Shown piece after piece: positions 19,585 to 64,000 of a stretch of DNA of 64,000 nt. A model generated the notes under the pieces. The model did not search any database. It had not been told where the DNA came from and saw only the letters and a list, made by a program, of their open reading frames with translations. The translations under genes were made by a program, and so were the position numbers. Positions within the stretch are counted from its first letter, which is position 1, and every line of letters starts with the position of its first letter. Source of the DNA: a virus (lineage: Duplodnaviria > Caudoviricetes); IMG/VR virus record IMGVR_UViG_3300032227_001172, positions 32,001-96,000 of that record; one strand, 5' to 3'.

Positions 19585-19585
19585 A

Positions 19586-19771
19586 ATGTCCACAACACAG
19601 AAATTTGTAGATATTGCTATTGGCACTAAATTTAAGTTTGACAATAAAGAATATGTAAAGATTAAAGATCAAAGAGTAACATGTTGTAAAGTTTTTAATG
19701 CTACATTACCCGATGACCCCAATCAAAAGTTTTTTATTGTTCCAATTAGCGAGGTAGAAATTATCAACTAA
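19586..19771 (+). CDS. Small hypothetical protein between the dnaE halves
   Basis: 61 aa, AGGAG RBS upstream, TAATG-coupled to the exonuclease. Confidence 0.65.
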   Translation: MSTTQKFVDIAIGTKFKFDNKEYVKIKDQRVTCCKVFNATLPDDPNQKFFIVPISEVEIIN

Positions 19772-20457
19772 TGATTAATTATAACAAAATTTGCGTATTT
19801 GATTTTGAAACAGACGGTACTGATACTAGTTCATGTAGCCCAGTGCAGTTAGCCGCTGTCATTATTGATCCTCTTAAATTAGAAGTGATTGCCAATTCCG
19901 AATTTAACATCTATTTTAAACCAGAAGTGTTAGAGAAGGATCCAAAATATGAGTATACGACAGATGTTGTAGATTTTCATGCAAAAGTTCAGGGCTGTTC
20001 AAAAGCAGATATCATGGATAGATGGCTACAATATCCATCACAAGAGCATTCTTGGAAAATGTTTGTAGATTATTTAGATAAATATCATACCCGAACATCA
20101 AAGAAAAGTCAGTTTTCTGCACCAATAGCAGCTGGATATAATATATATAGATTTGATCTTCCTATAGTTGATAGACTAAGCAAAAAATATGGGAATACTA
20201 ATAAAGAAAATAGATCAGACATATTTTATCCTAGAGACGTAATAGATATTATTAATTTAGTATTTTATTGGTTTGAACATAATAGTGAATTGAAAAGCTA
20301 TACATTGGATTCTTTAAGAGATTACCTCGGTATTTCTAAAGAAGGGGCACACGATGCTGTCAAGGATATTAGAGATAGTGCAGAAGTCTTGATCAGATTT
20401 ATGAAACTGCATAGGCGTTTATCTAACAGTATAAAGTTTAAGGATTCGTTTAAATGA
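19771..20457 (+). CDS. DEDDh 3'-5' exonuclease (DnaQ/epsilon-like proofreader)
   Basis: VFDFETDG (ExoI), AGYNI..FDL (ExoII), AHDAVKDI (ExoIII). Confidence 0.9.
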   Translation: MINYNKICVFDFETDGTDTSSCSPVQLAAVIIDPLKLEVIANSEFNIYFKPEVLEKDPKYEYTTDVVDFHAKVQGCSKADIMDRWLQYPSQEHSWKMFVDYLDKYHTRTSKKSQFSAPIAAGYNIYRFDLPIVDRLSKKYGNTNKENRSDIFYPRDVIDIINLVFYWFEHNSELKSYTLDSLRDYLGISKEGAHDAVKDIRDSAEVLIRFMKLHRRLSNSIKFKDSFK

Positions 20458-22067
20458 AACATTTTGCTTACTCTTGTGGTTGTAGTTTTGATGTTATAGA
20501 TGATAGCAATCTTAAGATAAATTTTGATCCTGTTCATCACCCAATAAACTTTGATTGCAAAAAAACATGGGATTTGATATCTGATGGGAATACTAAGGGG
20601 TGTTTCCAATTAGAATCTAGGCTTGGTAAATCAATGGCGAAAAAGCTCAAGCCAGAGAATATAGAACAATTATCCGCTTTAATTTCTATATTACGTCCGG
20701 GTTGTTTAGAGGCGATTAGAGATGGTAAAAGCGTAAGTAACCATTATATAGATAAAAAAAATGGACAAGAGTCGGTCGATTACTATCATCCGTCATTAAA
20801 AAATGTACTACATGCCACATTCGGCGAAATGATTTATCAAGAACAGGCCATGGAAATAGCCAAACATATTGCTGGATTCGATTTGCAAGAAGCAGACAAC
20901 CTAAGAAAAGCTATTGGCAAAAAGAAACCAGAAGAAATGGCAAAACTGAAATTAAAATTTATGCTTGGAACTAAAGCACTCAAAATTGTAAATGATAATG
21001 AGGCTGAAGAAATTTTCGGATGGATTGAAAAAAGCCAAAGATATAGCTTTAATAAGAGTCATGCCGTAAGTTATGCCGTCAACGCATATTTATCTGCTTA
21101 TACTAAAGCACATTTTCCTCGTATTTTTTTTGCATCTTATTTGAGATTTGCTAAAGATAAAATTGATCCTAAAGCTGAGATCAAAGCTCTGGTACAAAAT
21201 GCCACAGAAATGGACATCTTAGTCTGTGTGCCAGATATTAGAAATTTAAATGAATTATTCATAATGAAGAATAAAAAAATATATTTTGGTTTAACAGATA
21301 TTAAGGGTTTTGGTCAGTCTGTATATAAGAAACTGATTGCTTTGGTTAAAGATCAGTCAATTAATTTTGATAATATAAGCTGGTCAGAGTTTGTTGTTAA
21401 GATATTAGTTAATCTAAACTCCATTGCAGCTAAATCTTTAATAGAAAGTGGTGCTTTGGATTATTTCAAAATGACCAGAACATCTATGCTGTTAGAGTTA
21501 AGTTTGGTTTCAGAATTAACAAAAAAAGAAGTAGAGTTTGTAAATCATAATTTAGTGGGATGCAGATCGATTTATGAGTGCTTATATAAATTATGTCATA
21601 ATGCTAAATTAACATCTCGTAGAAAAACTATTATTGAAGGATTATTAAATACATTATCTAATCCACCATATTCATTGGAAGATAGTCCTGAATGGATTTC
21701 TGATACCGAAGAAGAAGCATTGGGTTGTAGTATTACTTGTTCTAAAGTAGACATGTATGATATTGGAATGACAAATTGTAATTGTAAAGATTTTAAAAAT
21801 ACTCTATTAAATGATATCATTTTATGTGGAGAAATTTCTACTATTAGTGTTACTAAAACTAAGACAGGAAAAAACCCCGGATCAGAAATGGCCTTTGTAT
21901 CATTATCAGATAGTTATGGTCTAATAGATAGTGTAATATTTTTTCCAGAAGCATATAAAGAATGTCGTAATATTTTATTCGATAATAATGTAATTATTGT
22001 TAAAGGTAAAAAAAGTAAAAATGGCGATTCATTAATTGTCGAAAAGGCATTTATTCCGAAAACTTGA
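20454..22067 (+). CDS. dnaE: DNA polymerase III alpha subunit, C-terminal half (fingers, HhH, OB fold)
   Basis: GCFQLES, ILRPG, MIYQEQAM, ADNLRKAIGKKK, YSFNKSHAVSY, IYFGL..IKGFG, MAFVSLSD. Confidence 0.92.
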   Translation: MKHFAYSCGCSFDVIDDSNLKINFDPVHHPINFDCKKTWDLISDGNTKGCFQLESRLGKSMAKKLKPENIEQLSALISILRPGCLEAIRDGKSVSNHYIDKKNGQESVDYYHPSLKNVLHATFGEMIYQEQAMEIAKHIAGFDLQEADNLRKAIGKKKPEEMAKLKLKFMLGTKALKIVNDNEAEEIFGWIEKSQRYSFNKSHAVSYAVNAYLSAYTKAHFPRIFFASYLRFAKDKIDPKAEIKALVQNATEMDILVCVPDIRNLNELFIMKNKKIYFGLTDIKGFGQSVYKKLIALVKDQSINFDNISWSEFVVKILVNLNSIAAKSLIESGALDYFKMTRTSMLLELSLVSELTKKEVEFVNHNLVGCRSIYECLYKLCHNAKLTSRRKTIIEGLLNTLSNPPYSLEDSPEWISDTEEEALGCSITCSKVDMYDIGMTNCNCKDFKNTLLNDIILCGEISTISVTKTKTGKNPGSEMAFVSLSDSYGLIDSVIFFPEAYKECRNILFDNNVIIVKGKKSKNGDSLIVEKAFIPKT

Positions 22068-30419: not shown

Positions 30420-31432
30420 TAGAAAATATTGTTATTATTGGCTATGATAATGGTTGTTGGCATAGCTTAATTTTTCATACCATATTATTACTAGTAATGG
30501 CTTTGATAGTGGAAATCCCTCCACCAATACATAAGCCTATTGTTTTAACAATCACATCTCATAATACCGAGGATGCATTAAGTATGGATCCTCCTTCTAT
30601 GTCCGTAGCATTTGATGACACTATAGATCAATCCGATGACGGTGCTTCTATGTTGGATCAAGTAGCTTATATTGATACGGCACCAGATATAGTTGACAAT
30701 ATAGATCTTCCAATTTTAGAAGAATATACTTCTTCTCAAACACAGGAGACTATAAATACAAAAGATCTAATGGAAAAGATTGGGAGAAATACAGACACAG
30801 AGCAATATGAACAAGACATTAAAAAGCCTTCATCTATTCCTATTCCGACAACACCAAAGATTAAAGTCAAAACAAATACTGGTGCTATAGCAAAACGTAG
30901 CCAACAGACCACCAATTCAACCAACACCGATAACCCACTGCGTCAACTAATAGCAGATGGTACATCAATAGGCGATGGTATACCACGAGAGGTTCTAAGT
31001 AATGGAGATGGACAAAATACCGGTGATATAGATGGTCGCCTTAAAATGTATGGAGCCAAAACAGGAGATATTCAAATATCTTTAATATGGAATACTGTTG
31101 ATGATATAGACTTACATGTTAATTATTCTAATAGATCAAGCAACGAAACTATTTTTTGGAGATATAGATTAGGCCGTAGTGGTGGGATGCTCGATATTGA
31201 TATGAATGGTAGTGGTCCACAGTCCAATAAGCCCATAGAAAATATTTTTTGGCCCAATAATGCAGCACCATCTGGACAATACACAATTGGGGTACATTTT
31301 TTTAGGTCATGGTCACAAAATAAGACTGTGCCAGTAATAATAAGAGTGCAGACTCTTAAGGGTGTTACTTTCCATAATGCTATAGTTAGATTGGGTAGTC
31401 CTTTAACTATAGTAACAACTTTTTCTAATTAA
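30380..31432 (+). CDS. Membrane-anchored protein with C-terminal YfaP/DUF2135-like domain
   Basis: TM segment SLIFHTILLLVMALIV, acidic/Pro/Thr linker, GDIQISLIWN..DDIDLHV, GGMLDIDMN, ENIFWP..APSGQY.IGVHFF. Confidence 0.7.
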   Translation: MVQMEQKSRIFRLIENIVIIGYDNGCWHSLIFHTILLLVMALIVEIPPPIHKPIVLTITSHNTEDALSMDPPSMSVAFDDTIDQSDDGASMLDQVAYIDTAPDIVDNIDLPILEEYTSSQTQETINTKDLMEKIGRNTDTEQYEQDIKKPSSIPIPTTPKIKVKTNTGAIAKRSQQTTNSTNTDNPLRQLIADGTSIGDGIPREVLSNGDGQNTGDIDGRLKMYGAKTGDIQISLIWNTVDDIDLHVNYSNRSSNETIFWRYRLGRSGGMLDIDMNGSGPQSNKPIENIFWPNNAAPSGQYTIGVHFFRSWSQNKTVPVIIRVQTLKGVTFHNAIVRLGSPLTIVTTFSN

Positions 31433-31877
31433 TAGGTCCCCATCTGCCATCAGGACAATTAGCATGTTTATTTGCTAATTTATTCTTGTAGTTTTTTTCT
31501 CTAACAATATGACATCCACACAACATACAAGCGTCGTCTTTATAGTAGTTACATTGTTTACAAATGCTTAATCTTTTTTCTATATCTTGTTGTGAACACA
31601 AACCATCGAGATGATCGTCTGCTTTAGGCTTATGAGACTCATCAATAACATTACTCATAATCTTAGTAATATCATTATTATTATTTACTATCTGTGCATT
31701 TTTTAAAACTTCTGGCTTGCCATTAGAAACTTCTTGTGTAAAAAGACTAGTCGCATATGGAAAACATAGAATTTTAGCTTCTGGATTTTCCAAAGATAGA
31801 ATTAATCCACAATTATTACACTTATAAATCTTTTTATTTTTAAAGATTTCGCCTGTTTCTTGGAATTCACAATACAT
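31425..31877 (-). CDS. Cys-rich small protein (DUF6171-like C-terminus)
   Basis: RLSICKQC...CMLCGC...KL....ANCP..RW; N-terminal CNNC. Confidence 0.7.
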   Translation of the reverse strand: MYCEFQETGEIFKNKKIYKCNNCGLILSLENPEAKILCFPYATSLFTQEVSNGKPEVLKNAQIVNNNNDITKIMSNVIDESHKPKADDHLDGLCSQQDIEKRLSICKQCNYYKDDACMLCGCHIVREKNYKNKLANKHANCPDGRWGPIN

Positions 31878-53359: not shown

Positions 53360-56300
53360 TTAGATATCTATCGTACCGCCACCAAAATTAGGAGGTTCAA
53401 CACCTTCTAAATTATTAGCAACCCAATCCTTCATTGATGCATCAATATTCGCCATAATTACGCCTTGAATAGCTGGTTGTAGTGCTGCAAATAGCTGTGC
53501 TCCTGTAATATCTACTGTTATTCTAGCTGGTTGCATTGCCAAATTAATTTGTTGTGGTATATTAATACGCTGTAATTCTTTGATCAAATTACCAAATTGC
53601 AAGACAAAACCAGCTACTCCATTATTTACACCATTGGCATTATTACCTCCAGCTGCTGCAGGACCCATTGCTGGTTGCTGAAAGCCTTGTAATATAGTAC
53701 CAAATTGTACCAATGTTTGATTAACACCAGTAAGTAAAGTGCCAAATATTGTAAGTTGTTGATTAATATTGCCAAATGATTCAGGATTAAATGCTGCTTG
53801 GGATGCTTGGTTTACCCTATTGGCTAATACCATTTGTGCTTGTGGTTGCATTACAACAGGTCTTGGTGTCAGCATTTGCTGTTGTTGAGCTTGTTGAGCT
53901 TGTTGAGCTCGTTGAACTTCATCGATACGTCTTTCTCTGGGATTTCTATGTTGACCTCTCCTGACGAAAATACCATCGCTTGCATATACTATTCCTCCAT
54001 TTTGATAATAACCATCATTTATAGCGCGTAACACAGGAAGATGTCGTTGTGTAGCTTGACGATTAACAACAAATTCGCCGGGAGTTAGCATTGCGGGTAC
54101 TGTGTCGGTACCACGAGGCTGATAGTTTACTAATGTTCCTGTTGATGCATATATAGCTCCACCATGGCTTCTATAGTTTAACTTTGGTGGAGATGGAGGA
54201 AGTGGCGGTGGAGTCATTTTTACGCCTTCTCCACCCTTAGTTTCCATAAATCTTACTAAACTTTTAGATAGTTCTCTGGTTTGTTCATCTGTACCAGGGA
54301 AATCCTGGAAATTAGACGTAAGAAATTCTTGGCTCCCAGAATTTTCTGCAATATCTAAGTAGTTCTGAGAAGTAAAACCCCTATCCTTGCTAAGTCTTGT
54401 TATAGCATCCAAAACTCGATCATGAGCCGTTAAAGTTTTTGGACCCCTTACTCCAACCTCTGCCATGATATCAGGTTGTATAAGAGACGCATCTTCCCTT
54501 CCAAATGCTAGTCCTGCGTTTCCATAACTACCACCAGATCGACCACGAGTATAATTATCAGCCTCAGATCTTAATGTCGAATTGATCCTATCTTTATCGA
54601 TCACTACACCCATATTAATTAATGCATCATCTACTAGAGACATAAAACCATCTTCTCCCAACTCTGTTCTCATCTGTTCTATAGATCTCTTTTTATAATA
54701 GTCTGCGGTTCCTTCTAATATATCATTAACTCCATATCCCATATGGTTTCTTGGAGTTGCCATTTCATGATATTGAGAAGTTGTTCTTTTGAGGACTGAA
54801 TCGGCTACTTGATCTCTGTTGTTCTCCATCCAAACTTTTAATAGTTTTCCAGTAGGATCCTTCATTGTCTGATAATGATGAGCAGCCTCATGAGCCACTG
54901 TGCCAATCATCTGTTCTGGGGTAATCTTAGGAGATATTCTACTCAAACCTCCCTGATAATCGCCGAGAGCTCCAGGAACAGGTTCTGTAAATCTTGTTGT
55001 TAATGAATCAAATGTTTTAGGATCTGCTCCAGAATAATGAATACTTTCAGCCAAGTTGTCTCTGGCTTTATATACTAACTGATCAACACTTATTGGACCG
55101 TCAACATAGCGACCTCCAAATCCTTTCATTCCTACAAACGGAGTAATCGCTTCTGATATGGGTCTATTTAATGCTTTTTCAGCATATCTTATCTGTTTTG
55201 GTGTTAATCCTCCGGGACCAACCATTGAATCTCCAACCCTTGTTGGTGTGGGTATAGAAGGCAAAGCTAACGATAGTAACCCTCCTGTTGCAACATCTCC
55301 TGCTGTTGATCCTGCCATTGCTGATACGGGATTTTCATCCATTAGTTGATTAGCTATAGCGTTAGGCTTTGGAGCTCCCGTATTTAATGCTGTTTCTTGC
55401 ACCAACGATCCTACTCCAGCTCCAGTAATACCTCCAATCAAGCCTCCCGCAATAATTCCAGGAGGTCCTAATGGAGCAAGGGCAGCTGCCGCTATTATAG
55501 CACCAGAAGTAGCCCCCATTTGAGGAACAAAAGACTTAGCAGCTCCGGCAGCAAAAGCTGCTCTGCTACGCATGGCCGCATATTCTGGATGATTAAAAGA
55601 TGTTTCTGGTAAAAGTTTAAATTCATTTGCTGAAATTTCTCTGCCATTTTGATCCAAATAGGTTTTAGATCCACCACTCTGTGATATGTGCGGAATACCC
55701 ATTCGCTTTAAACTTCTAGAATACTCACTATCTCTTATAACAGAATTTTTATCGTGAACTCCTTCTTTAAAAGATCCTGATTGAACAGTTGGTGTTGGTA
55801 GTTTTGGTCTTGATGGATCAAATCCATCTTGAGCATAAACCACACCGCCCTTACTCAATACAATAGCTGCTCTAGCATAAAACTGATTATATAAACTATC
55901 TACATATTCTTGAGATAATAAACTTTTATTTTTTAAAGATTCTATAGTATCATAATAATGTTGTATTCCTGTTTGTATATCTAGGACACGCTCATTCTCA
56001 GGAACTGTTTTAACTCCACCTATAAATTCTGACCAGTTCGTTGGTGGTTTTACTTTTTTATTATCAATTAATGGTTTAAGTGTGCTACGCATAGCACCAA
56101 ACCTAACATCCATTTCTCTAGCTTTATAAAAATAATCAATCTCGTCTTCTGTTAAAGATCCGTCTTTTTGTAATGCATTATATAAAGGCTGCAGATATTG
56201 ATTTGTACTAATTGATGTTCTGTTATCTTTTGTTACAGCAGGGCTTGTGGTGTGTCTCTGTAAGTAATGTCTAAGTTCATGAGCTACTATAGCCCACCAT

Positions 56301-59300
56301 TCTTTATATTCTTGAGGATCCAATCTATTATTTTGGTTACCAACTCTGTTATCTTGATCAAAGGTTTGCCAAGGGGCGACAAAAACATTTTGTGGTCCAT
56401 TATCTTTTCCTATATTTTCTCCAAGTAAGCCTCCGCCAATAAGTTTGACATTAACAGGAACTTTTTTATCTAAAAGTTTATTTATAGGTGTTTTTTGACC
56501 ACCTAGTGATTGTAAGGCAGGAAATACTGATTCTGATTGCGGACCATTACCCATTTCTCTATTAGCCTGAATATTATCAGTATCCATATTTTGTCCAGAA
56601 CGCTCCATCGCATCTCTCAGCCTTGTTATTGTTCTATTGCCGATTTCCATTCCTTCTGTTGATATGTTTTGTTGTATTCTTTGTGCTTGTTGTGTTTGTT
56701 TTGTCGATCTTGACGCTGATTCGACTTGAACTCCATTTTGAGCATAAACTACACCGCCATTATTATAATAACCATCATTAATAGCATGGAGTAATGGTAA
56801 ATGTTTTTGTGTAGCCGCCCTATTAATTACAAATTCTCCTGGTGTTAACATGGCGGGAACAGTGTCTGTGCCTTTTGGTTGGTAATTAACCAGTGTGCCA
56901 TCGGCAGCATAAACCATACCCCCACGATACATTCCCATCGGTTGTCCAGGTTGTGGACCTTGGGGAGGTGCTGGTATTGGTTGTCCGGGCAATTGTGGTA
57001 TTACGCCACCTATTTGAGCAGCTATAGCTTGAATAGCATTATTCATCACAACACCAAAATCATCTAATACGTTCAAAATCTTGTCTGACGCTATAGCTTG
57101 AGCTTCACAGCATTGTTTTAGCATAGCAATAGTATAATCTAGTTTTTCTTGACTAGTAATATTATTTTGAGGAACTGCCTGAGTATTAGTTTGAATATTA
57201 TCTTTATTAATATATCCTAGTTTAGTACTTTCTTTAGCGTTCATCAAAACTTCATCGATACGTTTATCTGGAGCTGGTTCTATTTGTACTCCATCAACAT
57301 ATTTAGTTGGATCAGTAGTCATACTTGCGCCTCCGACACCACCATCCGCTAGATACTCTATTTTACCACCCCTGCTGCGATTGATACTTTGTAATAATGG
57401 TAAATGTTTTTGTGTTGCTGCTCTATTAACAACAAACTCTCCTGGCGTTAACATTGCTGGCACAGTATCTGTTCCTTGTGGCTGATATGGAACCAACATA
57501 CCAGTACTAGCATATATAATTCCGCCCCTACTCTTTGTTGCTACTTTATTAGATACTCTAATAGCTTCATTTTGTGTTTGTTGGGCAGGATATAAAAAGC
57601 CAGCTACATTTCCACCTCCCAGAGCATTCAGTCTTGCGATATTAAAGTCATTATTAGCTCGTGGATCAATAAGTCCTTGTTTTGCTGCTCTAGTATATAA
57701 ATTAGCTTGTGCCATTTTTTTCTGGCCAGGATTCAGCTTATCAAATCTTGATACTAATTTTTCGAATACTCCAATTTGTTTGGATGATCTAACGAAGGTG
57801 CTTTCAAACTGTTTGGTAATTTCTTTACGTTCTGCTGGAGAGGCCGAACTAATAATCTGTTGTAGTCTAGGATCATTCTCAACATTTTTGGATAAATTAT
57901 TTTGTTGTACTCTTAATGCTGCTACCACTTGAGAAGCTTTTGGACTTAGTGGCGCATTTTGAAGCATAGAGCTATATATTGATACTAATTCTTGTGAATT
58001 AAAAGGATTATATACGGCATCTATCATGTCTGGTGGTATACCAAGAGTTCCTAGAGCTTCTGGAGTTCTAGCACCGAATGGGAAATCTTTTTGTAGTTTT
58101 TTCTGTAGATTTTTTCTCCATGTTAAAAATACGCCAGGATTAGAAAATTTATCTGGAATAGGCATATTCATATACTTAGCAGTAGCACGTATCTGATCTC
58201 CTTGCTGTTTAGCTAATTTATCATTAGCTTTCTTTTCTTCTCTTTGCTGTGCTTTAGCTTGTACTAGTTGTCCAGATTTATATTGATCCCAAAGTTTTTG
58301 ACGACCCTCGGTATCTAGTTGATCATATTTTTTATCTTTATATTCTTGATTTATATTTTGATTGACTGTATTTAATTGACCATATAATGTATCTAGTCTA
58401 GCATTTTTTTCTTTTTCCCATTTGAGTTCATCACCAGCAAATGAATTATTTGGATCATATCTAGAAGCTTTTTCTTCTTGGATTTGCCTATATAATTCTT
58501 CACGGTCTGTGACAGACTTTTGGAATTCTGGACTAAACGCATTTGGTGGTAAACGCTTTATCCATGGAATAACACGGTTAGTGCTTTCGCTGGTTTCACG
58601 ATAAGACCCAAACTTTTGTTGTAAAAGTCTTTGTTCTGGAGTTAATGGCTTATCTAAACCAAAACCATCTAAAGACATTCTATTAGGATCAGTTGCATAA
58701 ATAGCATCGTCAATTCTACCTCTTTCTGCATCTATATTAGCTTGTCTTTGCATCTTAGCGTTTTGAGCAGCCTCAGCTTTCTCAAGATCTTCATTTGTGG
58801 CCCATTCCCTTAAACCAACAGCTTTTTTACGTTCAGTAAGTTTTGTTCTTTCACTCCATTGTTTATCAAAAAGAGCATCTGCATCTGCTTGTTCTCTAGC
58901 TTGTTGGTCAGCTTTTTGCACGGCGGCATCTTTATCCTCTGCTGCCATCTGACTTCTAGCCTCACTAGTTCGTCTTTGATAAGATGCTTCTTTTTGAATT
59001 TCTTCATTCAAAGTAGCATCATCAAATGTAGAACTGTTGAAGAATGATCCGGTTCTAACGAATAACTGTTCTTCATTTCTTGTGGCGCTAGCTCTTTTTT
59101 GATCTTGGTAAGCTTGAGCTTTACGAGCTTCTAAATCTGCAACTAGTCTATCTCCTGCTTGAGTACGAGGTTTTGCTTTTAAATCCTCAATTTTATTCTG
59201 CAATTTAGCTTGTTGTTCAATAAATAAAATCTCAGCAACAGATCGTCCTTCATAAGTTTCTCTTCCTCCGGCTCTTCTGGCAACTTCGGCTTCTCTGCTA

Positions 59301-62300
59301 TCTTCTAGATTAGATCTACCAGCATTTTCCATTCTGCGAGTAGTTTCTCTGCTAGTAGATAAGTTTTGTCTATCATTATAAAGACCAGTAGTTTCTCTTC
59401 CTACTGAACCTACAATTTGTGCACCTCCAGCGATCGAAGCCCCGATTAAAGCTCCAGGAGGACCAAAAACTCGTCCAGCTATTGCTCCTTCGCCTATGGC
59501 AAAACCGAACTCTGTTAAATTACCAGCAGCAAGGTCTGTATAGCCACCCCGCTCAACACCTAAAGCACCACCAATCATACTCCTTTCTGCTCCAACATCT
59601 CCTCCACCACTAACACTTCCAGTTAAAGCTCCTGTAATACCTCCTCCTTCATAAGCAACATACGCTCTTTGTGCTAATGTTAATATTGGACCTAGTACAC
59701 TAAAAGTCTTTCCTAAAAATTCTCTAGTAGCAGGACTAGTGGCGAGTTTAAATAAATCTAACTTTAATAAATTTGGTATATTCATTCCTTTAAGTTTTGG
59801 AATTTTTTCACCGATATAACTTAACAAATTTGAAAGACTTTGAAAATATTTCTCAGCAATAAAACCTTTAGCTGCATTTCCACCGGTTTGTACCGCAGAC
59901 CCACCCTTTTTACCGGCATTAAATAATACCTGAGTTTGAGCATCTATATCTGCTAATAAAGCCGTCGGATCAAGACCACCAGCAGCATAAACCACACCGC
60001 CACGACTAAATGTTTTACTATTTCCAGCACTACCATTAATAGCACTTAATAATCCTAAATTATTTTTAGTAGCTTGAGCATTAACTACAAATTCTCCAGG
60101 ACTTAACATAGCAGGGATAGTATCAGTACCTCGTGGCTGGTAATTTACATATGTTCCATCACTAGCATATACGATACCTCCACCAGATAATCTTTGAGTA
60201 TTAGTAGCTTGACCCGGAGTTCCTACTCCAAAACCAGCACCACGTAATTGTTCGGTGTCAAATTTTACTCTAACTTCACTTAATGCTTTTATAAATGTTT
60301 GATTAGCACTATCTAATATGTCTTTTTGTTTAGCTAATATTCCTTCATTTAGTGCTTGTGTGCTTGTAGCAAGTTCTGCTTGTTGTGCTTTTAACATTCC
60401 TTGTAAAGCTTGGATTTCTGGACTTTGTTCTGGAGGCTGTCTTAGTAACTCAATCATTTTTTGGAACATAGGATTATTCTGAAGTCCCATTCCTTGAGCT
60501 TTAGCAAAATTCTCTAATAAATCAGCTCTCATATTATTAATTTGTGGTCCCTCTAGACCACTCATTTGAGATAACTGATTAAACAACCCTAAAGCGCTCT
60601 TAGTTTGTCCAGCAAAAGCCTGTTGAGCAGCGGCGTATGCTTCTTGTTGTGTTGATCCATTTTGTAGCGCCTGAAAATAAGCTTGTTGAGCAGCTTGAGA
60701 CTGATTGATGGTTGTAATTTGACCATTCAATGTATTATTAAGTAAATTAAATGTGGAATTTAATTCTCCTAATTCTTGCGGGGTGCTTCCTACTAGTTGT
60801 TCGGCAAATGATCCTGCTGCTTGTTGGCGACCACTTAATTCTTGTTGTATTCTACCAATTTCGCCGATAATATCATTAATATTTCCTTCGATAGCTCCGG
60901 GTAAACTTTCTAATCCTTGTTCTGTTGCTTTTAGGGCGCTCTCAGTTTCTGCTAATTTTTTAGTCAGCGCTGTGAATCTAGCGTCTGCTTTAGGAATAGT
61001 AGAATCAAAAGTATTAGCAGTATTTTGTAAAGCTGATCTGATAGCATTTACTTCTTTTTGTAATGTATCTTTACGAGAAGCTAAATCTGTAGCATTTAAT
61101 TGTTCGGGAGCTACGCCAGCTCTAGTAGCGGCGACATTTCTTCTAGATTGAAGTCTTTCTCCTATGCCGACTCTTTGACCCAAAGCTTCTTTTAATGCTA
61201 TATTAGATTGTGTTAGGGTGTTTTGATAATTTGCTTGATTTTCTCTTAGATTTTGTTGTAGTTTACCATATTCATTAGCAGCATTGGCCGCAAAATTCAT
61301 AGCCTCTTGTACAAGCTTTAAACTATTCTGTAAAGCTTCAAAAGCTTGCTTGCTTGCTTGTAATTGATTGCTTAAGCCAGATTCTTCCAATAGTTTTTGA
61401 ATATCTATTTCCTCGCCACGTTTTAAAGATTCTTCAATTTTATCTTTAAATTCATTTCTCAATCTATCCCCAAGATCATTTCTGCCAAATACAGCATCTA
61501 TTTTTTGTGTTAATTGATTTATAATATTTGTTGCTACTACGGCCTGATTAGCTCCTGTTTGTTGTGCTCTAGCGGCTCCACCAGCCACGATATCTTCTGC
61601 GTCTAAACTGAATCTAGCTAATTGTTCAATAAATCCTCGATCTCTACCAGCAAATTGAGATGCTTGACCGATAGCAGTATTTTGTTGTTCTCTACCAAAT
61701 GCTCTTGGATTTTGTAAAACATTTAAAGCATCAAGATTCGCAGTAAATCCAGTTGCTCCAGATACTATTTTTTGCAAATCATCACTGGCCTGTTTTAAAC
61801 TTGCTGATGACGCATTGATGGCCTGATTAAGATTATCAAAAGTTCTTGTCATACTAGCAGATACTACATTTATTTTTTGCGTAAGCTTTTGTGCAGCTTT
61901 AGCTCTAGCAGAATCGGCAAATTCAGCATTAGCTAATGTTCTGGCTTGATCAACATATTTTCGTTTAACTCCTTGAATAGCTCTTTCCTTTAGTTGCTCT
62001 GCCATATTAGATTTTTGTATGGTAGTTACTTCTGCTTGGTATTCAGGATTAGCTTCTGCGATAGCCGTATATAAATCCGATAAAGCAACTCCTTGTTGTT
62101 GTAAAATATTAGTTACTTGATCGTAACTTTTACCCGCAGCAATCATACTACTAATTAAAGCTTGAGCCTCTTGCGCTGCTGCTTGTTGCTCCGCTGTTCT
62201 TGCTCCAGAAATTTCCGCTGATGATCTTTTATCTCCTCCTAAGTAACCAAAAGTAGCTGTGCTCAATGCTCTACTAACCATTCCTGGTTGTTCAGCCTTA

Positions 62301-64000
62301 AGATTGGAAGCCATCCGTTTTTCTTCTAAGGCTTGAATTTTTTGAAAATTAGTAACTAATGTTCCAGCATCTTCGGATCGTCCAGTTTTAACAAATCTTT
62401 CTCTCACTTGGGCAGATTGTTCTACTGCTTTATCTAGTTGTATGGTGGCTAGTTCAGATTCTTTTTGGGCTACAGCGGATGCGAATCCATCCACAGCAGC
62501 AACAGCGCCGACTAATGCTCCCGCAATAGCCCCAATGCCACCAAACTGAGCACCTATAGATGTGTATGTTGAAAAAGCAGTGGCTCCTCCAGCAATACCA
62601 GCACCCGTAGTTCCTCCGATACTGTCTCCAATTTGTTGTGCCAGCATTGGACCAGTGAAAGCTAAAGCCGTACCTAAATTAGATAAATTTAAACCTCCTG
62701 TTCTTCCGCCTCCACCAGCCATGTCTCCGTCATCCTGTGCTTGAGCAGAATTATTCTGTGCTGTAGTTAGTTGTTGTGTAGATGTATTAAGTTGCTGTTG
62801 TGATTGAGCGGTTTGCTTTACCTTTTGTATCAGTCCACCCCAAGCCTGTGACACTCTTTGTTCCGCAGCTGCTCTTGCATCTGCAACAGAAACACTATTG
62901 TTAGTAGCTCGAATTTGTCTTGTTAATGCATTAACTTGCTGCCTTTGCTGTTGATACACGAGTTCTGCGGCTCTCTGGTCTCCTGTCTCTGCTGCTTGTT
63001 TAGCACCAAACAACACTTGAGATTCAGGCAAAACCCTACCAGATGCTTCAGCATATGCATCATCAAAAGACATAGTAGGATTAGCTTTTGCTATTTGGCT
63101 TACCACTTTTGCCATCATGTTTTCAACTGCTTGTTCTAATGCTTTAGCTGCGTCTTCTCCAACTCTAGATGCAGTAGACGAGAATTCAAAAACATCTCCA
63201 CCATTATTAAATTTCTGTACTCCAACTCTTCCTCCTCTATTGAAACCAAGAGCTTTTGTTGCCTTGGCACGTAGGATAAAACTGCCTTCTGGCAAGCTGG
63301 TGCGAATACTATCGCTCGTACCGCTACCTGGACCTTTAAATACGCTAATACCACCCTTACTAAACCGTCCCATACCATTACGATCAGCCTGATTCATACG
63401 TTTTAAGTTACCATAGCCAATGCTCTTAGCTGTTTTGGGTGGCACATAGGCTTCGCCATTACTAACTAGAGCAGGTACAGATCCTCCGTCAGCAAACTGC
63501 TGAACATCAGCCCATAGGTTATGTCTACCCATCAAGTCTACATATTTAGCTTTATCTACTCTGAATCTAGAACGAGGAGAAAGGATAAATTCATTTTCTT
63601 CACTAGGCTGTTTCATGAAGAATGTTTCCATCTGGCCTGTTCTTGGATTGATATCTTTTTTAGTTACATTAATTTTACGATCTTTAAATTGTTCAGCGAC
63701 ATCTACTCCTTGACCATTTTTCTTAGTCCTAACAGTAAGCATAGCTGCCCAATTATCTTCAGATCTTGGGGCGTTATCTAAAAAAGATTTAGCAACTGCA
63801 TAATTTTTACTCGTAGAAACAAAACCTGGAAGACTAAAGGCTTTACCAACAATTTTAGCTACTTCTTGAGCATAGTAGGTTTGTCTATTATTATATTTTG
63901 TATCTTTTGGAATATCTGGACTTTTATTTAAACCAGTATCCATAGCAAATTTATCAAAGGCATTACGAGATAATGAACTATATAGTTCCTCTGGTGCTGG
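53360..64000 (-). CDS. Tape-measure-like polyvalent protein (>3,540 aa, 5'-truncated) carrying ADP-ribosyltransferase, two HExxH metallopeptidase domains, glycine-zipper TM hairpins and repeated GG-flanked spacers
   Basis: Frame is open to nt 64000 (PAPEELYSSLSRNAFDKFAMDTG...). About 1000-aa Ala/Gln-rich helical region; GPGSGTSDSI and PAML.PGEFVVN motifs typical of tape-measure proteins; lies upstream of the tail-tip genes. Confidence 0.8.
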   Translation of the reverse strand, partial: PAPEELYSSLSRNAFDKFAMDTGLNKSPDIPKDTKYNNRQTYYAQEVAKIVGKAFSLPGFVSTSKNYAVAKSFLDNAPRSEDNWAAMLTVRTKKNGQGVDVAEQFKDRKINVTKKDINPRTGQMETFFMKQPSEENEFILSPRSRFRVDKAKYVDLMGRHNLWADVQQFADGGSVPALVSNGEAYVPPKTAKSIGYGNLKRMNQADRNGMGRFSKGGISVFKGPGSGTSDSIRTSLPEGSFILRAKATKALGFNRGGRVGVQKFNNGGDVFEFSSTASRVGEDAAKALEQAVENMMAKVVSQIAKANPTMSFDDAYAEASGRVLPESQVLFGAKQAAETGDQRAAELVYQQQRQQVNALTRQIRATNNSVSVADARAAAEQRVSQAWGGLIQKVKQTAQSQQQLNTSTQQLTTAQNNSAQAQDDGDMAGGGGRTGGLNLSNLGTALAFTGPMLAQQIGDSIGGTTGAGIAGGATAFSTYTSIGAQFGGIGAIAGALVGAVAAVDGFASAVAQKESELATIQLDKAVEQSAQVRERFVKTGRSEDAGTLVTNFQKIQALEEKRMASNLKAEQPGMVSRALSTATFGYLGGDKRSSAEISGARTAEQQAAAQEAQALISSMIAAGKSYDQVTNILQQQGVALSDLYTAIAEANPEYQAEVTTIQKSNMAEQLKERAIQGVKRKYVDQARTLANAEFADSARAKAAQKLTQKINVVSASMTRTFDNLNQAINASSASLKQASDDLQKIVSGATGFTANLDALNVLQNPRAFGREQQNTAIGQASQFAGRDRGFIEQLARFSLDAEDIVAGGAARAQQTGANQAVVATNIINQLTQKIDAVFGRNDLGDRLRNEFKDKIEESLKRGEEIDIQKLLEESGLSNQLQASKQAFEALQNSLKLVQEAMNFAANAANEYGKLQQNLRENQANYQNTLTQSNIALKEALGQRVGIGERLQSRRNVAATRAGVAPEQLNATDLASRKDTLQKEVNAIRSALQNTANTFDSTIPKADARFTALTKKLAETESALKATEQGLESLPGAIEGNINDIIGEIGRIQQELSGRQQAAGSFAEQLVGSTPQELGELNSTFNLLNNTLNGQITTINQSQAAQQAYFQALQNGSTQQEAYAAAQQAFAGQTKSALGLFNQLSQMSGLEGPQINNMRADLLENFAKAQGMGLQNNPMFQKMIELLRQPPEQSPEIQALQGMLKAQQAELATSTQALNEGILAKQKDILDSANQTFIKALSEVRVKFDTEQLRGAGFGVGTPGQATNTQRLSGGGIVYASDGTYVNYQPRGTDTIPAMLSPGEFVVNAQATKNNLGLLSAINGSAGNSKTFSRGGVVYAAGGLDPTALLADIDAQTQVLFNAGKKGGSAVQTGGNAAKGFIAEKYFQSLSNLLSYIGEKIPKLKGMNIPNLLKLDLFKLATSPATREFLGKTFSVLGPILTLAQRAYVAYEGGGITGALTGSVSGGGDVGAERSMIGGALGVERGGYTDLAAGNLTEFGFAIGEGAIAGRVFGPPGALIGASIAGGAQIVGSVGRETTGLYNDRQNLSTSRETTRRMENAGRSNLEDSREAEVARRAGGRETYEGRSVAEILFIEQQAKLQNKIEDLKAKPRTQAGDRLVADLEARKAQAYQDQKRASATRNEEQLFVRTGSFFNSSTFDDATLNEEIQKEASYQRRTSEARSQMAAEDKDAAVQKADQQAREQADADALFDKQWSERTKLTERKKAVGLREWATNEDLEKAEAAQNAKMQRQANIDAERGRIDDAIYATDPNRMSLDGFGLDKPLTPEQRLLQQKFGSYRETSESTNRVIPWIKRLPPNAFSPEFQKSVTDREELYRQIQEEKASRYDPNNSFAGDELKWEKEKNARLDTLYGQLNTVNQNINQEYKDKKYDQLDTEGRQKLWDQYKSGQLVQAKAQQREEKKANDKLAKQQGDQIRATAKYMNMPIPDKFSNPGVFLTWRKNLQKKLQKDFPFGARTPEALGTLGIPPDMIDAVYNPFNSQELVSIYSSMLQNAPLSPKASQVVAALRVQQNNLSKNVENDPRLQQIISSASPAERKEITKQFESTFVRSSKQIGVFEKLVSRFDKLNPGQKKMAQANLYTRAAKQGLIDPRANNDFNIARLNALGGGNVAGFLYPAQQTQNEAIRVSNKVATKSRGGIIYASTGMLVPYQPQGTDTVPAMLTPGEFVVNRAATQKHLPLLQSINRSRGGKIEYLADGGVGGASMTTDPTKYVDGVQIEPAPDKRIDEVLMNAKESTKLGYINKDNIQTNTQAVPQNNITSQEKLDYTIAMLKQCCEAQAIASDKILNVLDDFGVVMNNAIQAIAAQIGGVIPQLPGQPIPAPPQGPQPGQPMGMYRGGMVYAADGTLVNYQPKGTDTVPAMLTPGEFVINRAATQKHLPLLHAINDGYYNNGGVVYAQNGVQVESASRSTKQTQQAQRIQQNISTEGMEIGNRTITRLRDAMERSGQNMDTDNIQANREMGNGPQSESVFPALQSLGGQKTPINKLLDKKVPVNVKLIGGGLLGENIGKDNGPQNVFVAPWQTFDQDNRVGNQNNRLDPQEYKEWWAIVAHELRHYLQRHTTSPAVTKDNRTSISTNQYLQPLYNALQKDGSLTEDEIDYFYKAREMDVRFGAMRSTLKPLIDNKKVKPPTNWSEFIGGVKTVPENERVLDIQTGIQHYYDTIESLKNKSLLSQEYVDSLYNQFYARAAIVLSKGGVVYAQDGFDPSRPKLPTPTVQSGSFKEGVHDKNSVIRDSEYSRSLKRMGIPHISQSGGSKTYLDQNGREISANEFKLLPETSFNHPEYAAMRSRAAFAAGAAKSFVPQMGATSGAIIAAAALAPLGPPGIIAGGLIGGITGAGVGSLVQETALNTGAPKPNAIANQLMDENPVSAMAGSTAGDVATGGLLSLALPSIPTPTRVGDSMVGPGGLTPKQIRYAEKALNRPISEAITPFVGMKGFGGRYVDGPISVDQLVYKARDNLAESIHYSGADPKTFDSLTTRFTEPVPGALGDYQGGLSRISPKITPEQMIGTVAHEAAHHYQTMKDPTGKLLKVWMENNRDQVADSVLKRTTSQYHEMATPRNHMGYGVNDILEGTADYYKKRSIEQMRTELGEDGFMSLVDDALINMGVVIDKDRINSTLRSEADNYTRGRSGGSYGNAGLAFGREDASLIQPDIMAEVGVRGPKTLTAHDRVLDAITRLSKDRGFTSQNYLDIAENSGSQEFLTSNFQDFPGTDEQTRELSKSLVRFMETKGGEGVKMTPPPLPPSPPKLNYRSHGGAIYASTGTLVNYQPRGTDTVPAMLTPGEFVVNRQATQRHLPVLRAINDGYYQNGGIVYASDGIFVRRGQHRNPRERRIDEVQRAQQAQQAQQQQMLTPRPVVMQPQAQMVLANRVNQASQAAFNPESFGNINQQLTIFGTLLTGVNQTLVQFGTILQGFQQPAMGPAAAGGNNANGVNNGVAGFVLQFGNLIKELQRINIPQQINLAMQPARITVDITGAQLFAALQPAIQGVIMANIDASMKDWVANNLEGVEPPNFGGGTIDI
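53882..53908. repeat. 9-bp tandem repeat x3 (TTGTTGAGC), encoding AQQ AQQ AQQ
   Basis: Seen directly in the sequence. Confidence 0.8.
53972..54175 (-). repeat. Intragenic spacer repeat, copy 5
   Basis: YRSHGGAIYASTGTLVNYQPRGTDTVPAMLTPGEFVVNRQATQRHLPVLRAINDGYYQNGGIVYASDG. Confidence 0.9.
55823..55858 (-). repeat. Partial spacer repeat (GG-VYAxxG end only)
   Basis: LSKGGVVYAQDG. Confidence 0.75.
56732..56932 (-). repeat. Intragenic spacer repeat, copy 4
   Basis: MYRGGMVYAADGTLVNYQPKGTDTVPAMLTPGEFVINRAATQKHLPLLHAINDGYYNNGGVVYAQNG. Confidence 0.9.
57338..57535 (-). repeat. Intragenic spacer repeat, copy 3
   Basis: KSRGGIIYASTGMLVPYQPQGTDTVPAMLTPGEFVVNRAATQKHLPLLQSINRSRGGKIEYLADGG. Confidence 0.9.
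59975..60190 (-). repeat. Intragenic spacer repeat, copy 2
   Basis: LSGGGIVYASDGTYVNYQPRGTDTIPAMLSPGEFVVNAQATKNNLGLLSAING...FSRGGVVYAAGG. Confidence 0.9.
63197..63496 (-). repeat. Intragenic spacer repeat, copy 1 (degenerate, doubled)
   Basis: FADGGSVPALVSNGEAYV...FSKGG...GPGSGTSDSIRTSLPEGSFILRAKAT...FNRGG...FNNGG. Confidence 0.75.

What the first reader, a model, noticed from the sequence alone, without database searches (positions are those of the whole stretch)
53360..64000. Tape-measure-like protein built as a repeat-delimited polyprotein of effector cassettes (candidate processed, injected payload system)
Seen in the sequence: a ~65-aa spacer, xxGG-hh-YAxxG-x5-QPxGTDTVPAMLTPGEFVVNxxAT...L.AIN-...-xxGG-hh-YAxxG, occurs as four near-intact copies (53972, 56732, 57338, 59975), one degenerate doubled copy (63197) and one end-only copy (55823). 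Both ends of each spacer carry paired short motifs of the form [F/Y/L]xxGG or YAxxG, about 20 in total. The spacers separate unrelated cassettes: ART domain | ~1000-aa helical tape-measure-like segment with a TM hairpin | ~810-aa segment with a TM hairpin | ~135 aa | ~290-aa HExxH peptidase | ~550-aa TM hairpin plus second HExxH peptidase | ~200-aa C-terminal cap. Two spacers follow Pro-rich linkers (PGQPIPAPPQGPQPGQP; TPPPLPPSPP). Established: a single 'GTSDSIPAMLSxGEFV' motif is common near tape-measure C-termini, tape measures are often proteolytically matured and ejected into the cell, and phage polyvalent proteins combine zincins and ARTs. Inference: here the motif has been multiplied into a standard cassette boundary. 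It may be a cleavage, docking or packaging signal that releases separate effectors at infection, and a homology anchor for cassette swapping.
Basis: partly seen in the sequence, partly recalled or inferred. Interest (0 to 1): 0.88.

Follow-up and report, generated by a model that had tools for sequence, protein, structure and literature searches.

The report
Giant tape measure with swappable cargo
This is the tail end of a 5,078-residue phage tape-measure protein in which a short conserved module, the same one that lies beside the cleavage point of phage lambda's tape measure, is repeated to separate enzyme cassettes that related phages have swapped; whether the protein is actually cut there is untested.

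Summary
The repeats are real and sit at the stated coordinates. The ORF is cut by the window edge. It is a 5,078-aa gene of a 231-kb phage with terminal repeats, and its N-terminus (outside the window) is a canonical TP901-type tape-measure core. The protein has five intact ~70-aa spacers, a tandem degenerate pair and three orphan GG-h-h-[YF]A half-motifs (13 short motifs against 0.07 expected).

At least 109 related viral contigs and hundreds of giant metagenomic proteins (up to 7,872 aa, 2-11 copies) use the same layout: core, spacer, variable cassettes, spacer, ~150-aa C-terminal cap. Cassette content varies widely. Ends of exchanged segments cluster at spacers (41% within 10 aa against 8% at random).

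One cassette folds as a C3/VIP2-like ADP-ribosyltransferase without any spacer residues. Another carries all four HAD phosphatase motifs. The two "peptidases" rest on HExxH motifs alone.

The spacer is homologous to lambda gpH 732-786, just after the gpH*/gpHC cleavage region. T5 pb2 is cut three residues before its only GG-h-h-Y motif. The spacer does not fold alone.

The polyvalent tape-measure reading with spacers as exchange boundaries is supported. Cleavage into injected effectors is plausible but untested. I rate it a new variant of known kinds.

The parts
53360..64000 (-). C-terminal 3,546 codons plus stop of a 5,078-aa tape-measure ORF. The ORF continues past the window edge to genome position 100596 (window-equivalent 68596). 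Residues 1-1532 lie outside the window: TP901-type core 1-520, spacer 1 at 522-597, cassette A 598-1030, cassette B 1044-1472, and orphan half-motifs at 1034 and 1475.
63497..64000 (-). Cassette C, an R-S-E type ADP-ribosyltransferase fold (protein residues 1485-1700; the window holds 1533-1700). STS and ExE motifs are invariant in relatives.
63182..63499 (-). Tandem pair of divergent spacers (the 'doubled' copy, residues 1700-1805). It is of the classical GTSDSI...GE type and is one of the best conserved parts of the family, up to 85% identical.
60194..63181 (-). Segment D (residues 1806-2801): Q/A/L-rich segment with a Gly-zipper hydrophobic stretch at 2011-2045. It is a conserved scaffold part, found in most relatives at 22-82% identity.
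59969..60193 (-). Spacer 2 (residues 2802-2876).
   Evidence: E 4.2e-41
57536..59968 (-). Cassette E (residues 2877-3687): Gly-rich hydrophobic stretch at 3038-3066 followed by a charged region. Rare in relatives; weak match to phrog_18476.
57311..57535 (-). Spacer 3 (residues 3688-3762).
   Evidence: E 1.6e-41
56933..57310 (-). Cassette F (residues 3763-3888): ~126 aa, hydrophobic stretch 3847-3867, ends in a Pro-rich linker. Found only in the nearest relative.
56726..56932 (-). Spacer 4 (residues 3889-3957).
   Evidence: E 1.5e-40
55856..56725 (-). Cassette G (residues 3958-4247): orphan domain with HELRH at 4106. The zincin assignment rests on this motif only.
55820..55855 (-). Orphan half-motif SKGGVVYAQDG (residues 4248-4259), the boundary between cassettes G and H. 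It is also the start of the segment shared at 79% identity with a distant relative.
54173..55819 (-). Cassette H (residues 4260-4808): Gly-zipper hydrophobic hairpin at 4355-4400 and HEAAH at 4569, ending in a Pro-rich linker. It is 79-86% identical to a cassette at a different position in a protein whose core is only 56% identical.
53969..54172 (-). Spacer 5 (residues 4809-4876).
   Evidence: E 1.8e-40
53363..53968 (-). C-terminal cap (residues 4877-5078). A tail after the last spacer is a family-wide feature, 137-176 aa in the middle half of proteins (median 154). By analogy with lambda gpHC, T5 pb2C and Douge gp16 it is inferred to dock in the tail-tip hub.
   Evidence: papers PMC12617516, PMC10038345, PMC13033339

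Best explanation
The region is the C-terminal 70% of a 5,078-aa TP901-type tape-measure protein (TMP) of an uncultured 231-kb phage. It has been built out into a polyvalent cargo carrier.

An ordinary TMP ends with a hydrophobic stretch, one conserved ~70-aa junction module ([FY]AxGG ... GTD(T/S)VPAMLxxGEFV ... L..(I/M)N ... [FY]AxGG) and a short hub-binding tail. Here that junction module occurs seven times, plus three half-motifs. The copies bracket self-contained cassettes set between conserved scaffold parts (core, doubled spacer, segment D, cap).

Shown:
- TMP identity.
- The repeats and their conservation at the protein level.
- Homology of the module to lambda gpH 732-786.
- Cassette turnover between relatives, with breakpoints at the modules.
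- One autonomous ADP-ribosyltransferase fold and one complete set of HAD phosphatase motifs.

Inferred:
- The TMP fills the tail lumen in a largely unfolded or metastable state and is expelled C-terminus first at infection.
- The hydrophobic hairpins enter the host envelope, and the enzyme cassettes reach the envelope or cytoplasm ahead of the DNA.
- The junction modules are sites next to which the protein is cut during tail maturation, as in lambda and T5, so that cassettes become separate polypeptides, each beginning with a module.
- Because the modules are conserved and not part of the cassette folds, they are permissive in-frame junctions at which recombination can swap cargo.
For: TMP identity: PF10145 at 81 bits (cut-off 33.2) and TIGR01760 at 74.5 bits (cut-off 28.8) on residues 151-487. 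PHROG TMP families also match.

Repeats. Purifying selection on old copies.

Family layout:
- 109 IMG/VR contigs encode relatives, with 1-5 copies each in the parts seen.
- In the 1.84-billion-protein library, 16,112 representatives match the spacer profile and 758 do so at E<=1e-30. All of the top 150 have 2-11 copies, in proteins up to 7,872 aa.
- In 126 N-complete proteins the first spacer starts at about residue 521, the last is followed by a median 154-aa tail, and copy number tracks length (r=0.71).
- Spacers never occur outside the TMP ORF in 80 loci.

Cassette turnover:
- 1,813 inter-boundary segments fall into 325 clusters, 199 of them singletons.
- The nearest relative (core 87% identical) differs by wholesale cargo replacement, with all four breakpoints within 10 aa of a spacer.
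- Cassette H is 79% identical to a protein whose core is 56% identical. The shared segment starts at the orphan half-motif and ends in spacer 5.
- Cassette order B then C is inverted in P0070.
- Ends of 70 high-identity islands lie within 10 aa of a boundary in 41% of cases, against 8% at random.

Cassette identities:
- The ART model has pLDDT 84 and matches Certhrax, VIP2, C3 and iota Ia at probability 1.0, with invariant STS and ExE.
- HAD motifs I-IV are invariant in 18 homologues of cassette B.
- J-domains occur in relatives' cassettes.

Link to cleavage:
- The broad spacer profile hits lambda gpH 742-786 at E 2.6e-9 in a single-sequence test, and 732-785 at E 0.0057 against the whole PDB.
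- That segment lies just after the Gly-rich region where gpH is cut into gpH* and gpHC. The site and the protease are unknown, and the region is unresolved in cryo-EM (PMC12617516).
- T5 pb2 is cut after R1127 (PMC10038345). This is three residues before its only GG-h-h-Y motif. That pattern is absent from 51,760 aa of other ORFs of this genome.

The spacer alone is not a folded domain (pLDDT 61).
Against: - No data here show cleavage, virion incorporation or injection of any cassette.
- The T5 resemblance is a short pattern chosen after the fact, and the spacer profile does not hit pb2.
- In lambda the exact cut site is unknown, so adjacency is known only to within about 20 residues.
- No candidate protease was found. 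HExxH cassettes are rare in the family although spacers are universal, and the genome has no JAB or NlpC/P60 domain.
- No relative has the gene naturally split at a spacer.
- A folded 24-kDa ART domain in three or six copies would not fit side by side in a tail lumen of about 4 nm (my estimate). The cargo would have to travel unfolded or staggered.
- Most cassettes have no recognisable function.
- The tail type is unknown. No sheath was detected, but the structural genes are too divergent to name.
Confidence: 0.55

Rival explanations
1. The layout is the same but the protein is never cut. The spacers are conserved linear motifs that bind something during assembly or ejection: the tail assembly chaperone, the inner wall of the tail tube, the hub, or a host envelope factor. 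They keep a very long, partly globular TMP in register or help it refold. The whole chain is ejected as one piece.
For: The spacer does not fold alone and looks like a strand-plus-helix motif that needs a partner. In lambda the homologous segment is disordered in the mature virion. No protease candidate and no naturally split genes were found. The invariant hydrophobic PAML..GEFV core fits a docking strand.
Against: It does not explain why both mapped TMP cleavage events lie next to this motif type. No partner has been identified. Ten boundary elements spaced irregularly, 10 to 1,000 aa apart, do not look like a periodic register.
Confidence: 0.33
2. The copies are ordinary internal TMP repeats that only add length to the tail ruler. 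The segments between them are divergent filler with no function of their own.
For: TMPs often contain repeats, and TMP length sets tail length (PMC5099701). Most cassettes match no family.
Against: At least one cassette is a confident globular ART fold with catalytic motifs conserved across relatives, and another keeps all four HAD motifs. Cassettes move between distant relatives at 79-90% identity while the cores are 55-62% identical. TMP length ranges from 1,958 to 7,872 aa within one family, which would mean a fourfold range of tail lengths.
Confidence: 0.05
3. It is not a tail-lumen protein. It is a head-packaged polyvalent ejection protein that has merely acquired a TMP-like N-terminus.
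For: The known polyvalent proteins are head-packaged (PMC5512222). Fitting folded cargo into a tail lumen is physically difficult. The flanking giant ORFs are unidentified.
Against: The N-terminal core passes both curated TMP models. The first 600 aa plus the cap reproduce a complete canonical TMP layout. The gene lies among fibre-like structural genes with Laminin_G_3, fn3, collagen-like and baseplate-wedge-like matches. No second TMP candidate was seen, though the genome was not searched exhaustively.
Confidence: 0.05

Closest known systems
Proteolytically matured tape measures: lambda gpH (gpH* + gpHC) and T5 pb2 (pb2* + pb2C)
   Same: Both share the order hydrophobic stretch, then cut, then C-terminal fragment that stays bound in the tail-tip hub. 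Lambda gpH carries one statistically supported copy of the same junction module (732-786) flanked by FATGG and YATGG. T5 is cut three residues before a GG-h-h-Y motif, which separates an enzymatic domain from the rest.
   Different: Those proteins have one junction and at most one small enzymatic piece. This one has seven modules plus three half-motifs and at least eight cassettes. No cleavage has been shown here. The protease is unknown in all cases.
Tape measures with embedded cell-wall hydrolase domains (mycobacteriophage TM4, SPbeta YomI, staphylococcal phages, T5 pb2)
   Same: Enzymatic domains sit inside a TMP and are delivered through the tail (cited in PMC12617516). Mycobacteriophage Douge gp16 even has two copies of the spacer.
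   Different: The known cargo is muralytic and acts in the envelope. Here the recognisable cargo (R-S-E ART, HAD phosphatase-like, and J-domains in relatives) points to cytoplasmic targets. SPbeta YomI lacks the spacer.
Polyvalent proteins of phages and conjugative elements (Iyer, Burroughs, Anand, de Souza and Aravind 2017, PMC5512222)
   Same: Many unrelated enzymatic domains, including ARTs and metallopeptidases, occur in one giant polypeptide of a mobile element. There is extensive domain shuffling, and the proposal is injection with the DNA and possible autoprocessing.
   Different: That paper never mentions tape measures (0 occurrences). The signature families are not detected here: MPTase-PolyVal and LPD23 give no hit, and ART-PolyVal is below its cut-off. 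A standard repeated boundary module is not described there.
Sle1-type TMP-related effectors of actinobacterial contractile injection systems (PMC13277306, 2026)
   Same: A TMP-derived scaffold carries exchangeable functional domains that are loaded in a tail-like tube and ejected. It is modular and reconfigurable.
   Different: Those are cargo of a bacterial tail-like particle, have a single C-terminal functional domain, and no repeated junction module is reported.
MARTX-type multi-effector toxins (analogy from my own knowledge, not tested)
   Same: Arrays of interchangeable effector domains in one giant polypeptide, exchanged by recombination and released by processing between domains.
   Different: These are unrelated in sequence, secreted by a bacterial secretion system, and cut by a dedicated internal cysteine protease domain. 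No such domain was found here.

Membership tests
TP901-family phage tail tape measure protein (TIGR01760 / PF10145) | Core domain matches the curated models above their cut-offs | tested here: met
   TIGR01760 at 74.5 bits (cut-off 28.8) on residues 151-487; PF10145 at 81 bits (cut-off 33.2) on 192-383
TP901-family phage tail tape measure protein (TIGR01760 / PF10145) | The gene lies in the tail module, between chaperone/tube genes and tail-tip genes | tested here: inconclusive
   Neighbours on the same strand include fibre-like and baseplate-wedge-like proteins with Laminin_G_3, fn3 and collagen-like matches. Tube, chaperone, Dit and Tal genes could not be named.
TP901-family phage tail tape measure protein (TIGR01760 / PF10145) | Sits in the tail lumen and sets tail length | not testable with these tools
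   There is no isolate and no virion data.
Lambda gpH-type C-terminal junction module | Sequence homology of the spacer to gpH 732-786, including the flanking [FY]AxGG motifs | tested here: met
   23.2 bits, E 2.6e-9 in a single-sequence test. E 0.0057 against all PDB sequences. FATGG at 733 and YATGG at 778 are the only such motifs in gpH.
Lambda gpH-type C-terminal junction module | Proteolytic cut next to the module during tail maturation | not testable with these tools
   Known for lambda only to within about 20 residues, and for T5 at R1127. Nothing is known for this phage.
Polyvalent proteins (Iyer et al. 2017) | Several unrelated enzymatic or effector domains in one polypeptide of a phage or plasmid | tested here: met
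   ART fold, HAD motifs, a weak second ART-like region and two HExxH regions
Polyvalent proteins (Iyer et al. 2017) | Presence of the signature Pfam families (ART-PolyVal, MPTase-PolyVal, LPD domains) | tested here: not met
   ART-PolyVal at 19.6 bits, below its cut-off of 31.2. PF18818 and PF18838 give no match in the genome. LPD23 appears only as a language-model look-alike at 0.84-0.89.
R-S-E (C3/VIP2/iota-like) ADP-ribosyltransferases | ART fold | tested here: met
   AF2 pLDDT 84, pTM 0.77. Foldseek probability 1.0 and E 4e-8 to 3e-6 against Certhrax, VIP2, Plx2a, C3larvin, Ia, CDTa and C3bot; TM-score 0.45-0.59.
R-S-E (C3/VIP2/iota-like) ADP-ribosyltransferases | Catalytic S-T-S and E-x-E motifs, and the Arg motif | tested here: met
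   STS and ExE are invariant in 9 homologues and align with those of Vis toxin. The Arg is present in 8 of the 9.
R-S-E (C3/VIP2/iota-like) ADP-ribosyltransferases | Sequence-family membership (PF03496 above its cut-off) | tested here: not met
   15.9 bits against a cut-off of 23.4. This is a divergent new subfamily.
Zincin metallopeptidases (cassettes G and H) | HExxH plus a third zinc ligand within a zincin fold | tested here: inconclusive
   HExxH is present twice. There is no family hit, no homologues for G, no significant G-H similarity and no structure model.
HAD-superfamily phosphatases (cassette B, outside the window) | Motifs I (DxDxT), II (S/T), III (K) and IV (DD) in order | tested here: met
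   D195-F-D197-x-T199, T259, K300 and D312-D313 are invariant or nearly so in 18 homologues. Weak match to phrog_415, polynucleotide kinase (E 2e-4). No PDB or Pfam hit.

The most novel reading that the evidence does not exclude
The conserved [FY]AxGG-GEFV-[FY]AxGG module is the general maturation and cleavage signal of long-tailed phage tape measures, which would explain the lambda gpH to gpH* cut whose site and protease remain unknown. In a large uncultured phage lineage it has been reiterated to turn the tape measure into a true polyprotein. The tail lumen is then loaded with a train of separately released, horizontally exchangeable enzymes that enter the host before the genome. This would be a natural plug-and-play payload format for phage tails.
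Probability: 0.3. Interest if true: 0.85.

Novelty: new variant of a known kind. Interest (0 to 1): 0.72.

Why it matters
- It ties a motif present in thousands of tape measures, about which the papers I could search say nothing, to a testable role. The module sits beside the only two mapped TMP processing events, and for lambda the site and the enzyme are still unknown (PMC12617516).
- It shows that tape measures, not only head-packaged proteins, can act as polyvalent carriers of cytoplasm-directed enzymes (ART, HAD phosphatase-like, J-domain). That widens the range of cargo phages may deliver at the moment of infection.
- The conserved layout (core, module, cassette, module, cap) with natural cassette exchange suggests how foreign protein domains might be placed into a tail lumen.
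- The hundreds of unnamed cassette families are a reservoir of candidate anti-host or anti-defence activities.

Tried and rejected
- Homotrimer prediction of the spacer (three copies, 115-row alignment) gave no verdict. It counts neither for nor against binding.
- I looked for a lambda gpK-like processing protease: no JAB (PF14464) or NlpC/P60 (PF00877) domain in the genome.
- I looked for natural gene fission at spacers. Six-frame scans of 80 loci found no spacer outside the TMP ORF. Called proteins that seem to start at a spacer are artefacts: P0062 sits at a contig end and P0187 follows a scaffold gap of N.
- MPTase-PolyVal (PF18818) and LPD23 (PF18838) HMMs gave no match.
- Cassette G has no homologue of 159-508 aa. 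Its language-model look-alikes are unnamed viral clusters.
- Cassette B gave no named look-alike and no PDB sequence hit.
- The narrow spacer profile hit nothing in the PDB. The broad one was needed.
- The spacer profile does not hit T5 pb2. The T5 link rests only on the short GG-h-h-Y pattern.
- SPbeta YomI has no spacer.
- Tail sheath PF04984 was not found. This is uninformative, because PHROGs and Pfam fail on nearly all structural genes here.
- Isolated phages share only 19-26% identity with the TMP core.
- No paper in the library holds both 'tape measure' and 'GEFV'.
- Recent duplication, or DNA-level homology, as the reason for the repeats is rejected. The copies are 63-79% identical at the DNA level with saturated synonymous sites.
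Full report
**1. What is in the window.** The minus strand from window 53360 to the window's upper edge is one uninterrupted reading frame. The window is positions 32001-96000 of a 230,691-bp virus record with direct terminal repeats, estimated complete. In that record the frame continues to position 100596. This gives a 5,078-codon ORF with an ATG preceded by GAGGA. The exact protein is in public collections without any name.

**2. The repeats are real.** A profile built from the copies recovers five full spacers, at residues 522-597, 2802-2876, 3688-3762, 3889-3957 and 4809-4876, with independent E-values of 1.7e-32 to 1.6e-41. It also finds a tandem pair of divergent copies (1705-1751 and 1760-1802) and an end-only copy (4247-4261).

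The short boundary motif GG-h-h-[YF/K][A/F/M]xxG occurs 13 times, against 0.07 expected from shuffles. Three of these stand alone, at 1034, 1475 and 4250, and also separate cassettes.

At the DNA level the copies are only 63-79% identical, with third codon positions close to random. Between copies dN is 0.18-0.29 and dS runs from 0.9 to saturation. They are old duplicates held by selection on the peptide, not recent duplications or DNA-level repeats.

**3. It is a tape measure.** Residues 151-487 pass the curated cut-offs of TIGR01760 (74.5 bits against 28.8) and PF10145 (81 against 33.2), and match several PHROG tape-measure families. The first 600 residues look like a complete small tape measure: core, a hydrophobic stretch at 466-504, then a junction module. 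The last module is followed by a 202-aa cap.

The neighbouring genes on the same strand are giant, mostly unidentifiable ORFs. Some have fibre-like domains: Laminin_G_3, fn3, collagen-like and baseplate-wedge-like matches. The other half of the window is a replication module. The closest isolated phages share only 19-26% identity in the core.

**4. A family-wide layout.** At least 109 IMG/VR contigs encode relatives of the core at 48-77% identity. Their tape measures range from 1,958 aa to over 4,200 aa where the fetched DNA ends, and each part seen carries 1-5 spacers at varying positions.

I searched the spacer profile against 1.84 billion representative proteins. It gave 16,112 matches at E<=1e-3 and 758 at E<=1e-30. 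All of the top 150 carry 2-11 copies, in proteins up to 7,872 aa. TP901-type tape measures of 1,700-2,000 aa also match, with scores too high for a single copy.

In 126 proteins with an intact N-terminus the first spacer starts at a median residue 521. The last is followed by a tail of 137-176 aa in the middle half of proteins (median 154). Copy number correlates with length (r=0.71). Spacers never occur in other ORFs of the 80 loci.

**5. Cassettes turn over, and the breakpoints lie at the spacers.** Of the query's segments, the core is found in 80 of 80 loci. The doubled spacer is found in 63 and segment D in 50. Cassette B is found in 46, C in 6, A in 3, and E to H in essentially none. In the wider set, 1,813 inter-boundary segments form 325 clusters, 199 of them singletons.

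The nearest relative, P0019, has a core 87% identical and segment D 78% identical. It differs by replacement of the whole first cargo region and of cassettes G plus H. The homology breaks at query residues 587, 1691, 3964 and 4810, each within 10 residues of a spacer edge.

Cassette H is 79% identical over 604 aa to a segment 2,000 residues further along P0145, whose core is only 56% identical. The shared segment starts at the orphan half-motif (4248) and ends in spacer 5. The order B then C is reversed in P0070.

Across the family I found 70 islands of 70% identity or more that exceed core identity by at least 15 points. Of their ends, 41% lie within 10 aa of a boundary element, against 8% for random placement. 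These pairs are not independent events, so this is an enrichment and not a calibrated probability.

**6. What the cassettes are.**
- **Cassette C** (1485-1700) has invariant S-T-S and E-x-E motifs in nine homologues. Its model has pLDDT 84 and pTM 0.77. Foldseek matches it to Certhrax, VIP2, Plx2a, C3larvin, iota Ia, CDTa and C3 at probability 1.0. It is an R-S-E type ADP-ribosyltransferase fold, too divergent for the Pfam cut-off. The fold is complete without any spacer residue.
- **Cassette B** (1044-1472, outside the window) keeps the four HAD phosphatase motifs invariant in 18 homologues and weakly matches the phage polynucleotide-kinase family.
- **Cassette A** has a sub-threshold ART-PolyVal match.
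- **Cassettes G and H** have HExxH motifs but nothing else to identify them.
- **The wider family.** Of 149 cassette representatives, only two match any Pfam family. Both are J-domains, which hints at a cytoplasmic target. Calling most cassettes "effectors" is therefore an inference.

**7. What the spacer is.** Alone, with a 115-sequence alignment, it does not fold: pLDDT is 61 and the only element is a short helix over ATQKHLPLLHAIN. A trimer prediction gave no verdict.

Its near-invariant positions are GG, G, D, P-A-M-L, G-E-F-V, L, N and GG. This is the profile of a linear motif, not of a domain.

A broadened profile hits lambda gpH at 742-786 (E 2.6e-9 in a single-sequence test). Against all PDB sequences it hits gpH 732-785 (E 0.0057) and two internal copies in mycobacteriophage Douge gp16 (E 1.7e-10). 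In both published structures only the extreme C-terminus is resolved, and the motif region is invisible. In gpH the module is bracketed by FATGG and YATGG, the only such motifs in the protein.

**8. [quoted passage not shown] The exact site and the catalyst are unknown, and residues ~690-817 are unresolved. The module begins about 10-20 residues after that glycine-rich stretch.

In T5, pb2 is cut after R1127, between a hydrophobic stretch and an enzymatic region (PMC10038345). The new N-terminus reads AEGGMMYPG... This is the only GG-h-h-Y motif in pb2, and the pattern is absent from 51,760 residues of other ORFs in this genome.

Both mapped tape-measure cuts therefore lie just upstream of this kind of motif. 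That evidence is circumstantial. The T5 pattern was defined after seeing it, and the profile itself does not hit pb2.

I found no candidate protease and no relative in which the gene is split at a spacer.

**9. How it most likely works.**

Shown: a tape measure whose canonical C-terminal junction module has been reiterated to bracket autonomous, exchangeable cassettes between conserved scaffold parts.

Inferred from established tape-measure biology:
- The protein occupies the tail lumen in a metastable state and leaves tip-first at infection.
- The Gly-zipper hydrophobic hairpins enter the envelope.
- The enzyme cassettes reach the periplasm or cytoplasm before the DNA.

Inferred with less confidence, about 0.35-0.4: the modules mark maturation cuts, so that each cassette becomes a separate polypeptide headed by a module.

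A physical caveat (my estimate): three chains total about 1.7 MDa. That needs at least about 160 nm of a 4-nm lumen at full packing. Folded ART domains could not sit side by side, so the cargo must be unfolded or staggered.

The main rival is that the modules are uncut docking or registration motifs. It explains the disorder and the missing protease equally well.

**10. Comparison and novelty.** The parts are known kinds: processed tape measures (lambda, T5), tape measures with muralytic domains, polyvalent proteins, and the TMP-derived Sle1 effectors reported in 2026. The papers I could search say nothing about three things. These are the repeated junction module as a standard cassette boundary, its homology to the lambda cleavage-adjacent segment, and a large lineage of tape measures carrying cytoplasm-type enzymes. 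I rate it a new variant of a known kind.

Noticed in passing
window 17710-22067 (+): A DnaE-type DNA polymerase III alpha is encoded as two ORFs. PHP plus the NTPase domain lie at 17710-19584, and finger, HhH and OB at 20454-22067. A 228-aa ORF at 19771-20457 sits between them. This could be a split gene or an inserted mobile element.
   Followed up: partly
window 31877-53332 (-): Directly downstream of the tape measure lies a run of giant ORFs of 1,527, 580, 550, 1,307, 533 and 2,631 aa. None matches a PHROG family. The only Pfam trace is a sub-threshold beta-roll repeat in the 1,527-aa protein. They are presumably tail-tip or fibre proteins of an undescribed kind.
   Followed up: partly
relatives' tape measures (alignment A3 members): Two cassettes in related giant tape measures are J-domains (DnaJ, E 2.7e-12). 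This suggests that some cargo targets the host Hsp70 system in the cytoplasm.
   Followed up: no
PDB 8zdo chain S (mycobacteriophage Douge gp16), residues 967-1029 and 1412-1460: A cultured, structurally solved siphophage has two internal copies of the same spacer in its 1,699-aa tape measure. Only residues 1658-1699 are resolved in the structure. The ~380-aa segment between the copies was not examined.
   Followed up: partly
window 54001-64000 against the rest: The tape-measure gene has higher G+C (0.36-0.41) than the rest of the window (0.27-0.36). The likely cause is its Gly/Ala-rich composition, but I did not test this against a foreign origin for some cassettes.
   Followed up: no
window 1-31432 (+) against 31425-64000 (-): The window holds two convergent blocks that meet near 31.4 kb. 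One is a replication and nucleotide module: class II ribonucleotide reductase, DnaB, Toprim primase, a PD-(D/E)XK nuclease, RecA and two glycosyltransferases. The other is the structural block. GC skew changes sign at the same point.
   Followed up: partly
window 31425-31877 (-): A 150-aa ORF at the end of the structural block has weak matches to phrog_13558 and to Cys-rich small families (DUF6171, CRIPT). Its function is unknown.
   Followed up: no
protein residues 1700-1805 (window 63182-63499): The 'degenerate' doubled spacer is among the most conserved parts of the family, up to 85% identical where cores are about 60%. It always lies between the first variable cargo region and segment D. 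It probably has a role of its own, distinct from the other spacers.
   Followed up: partly
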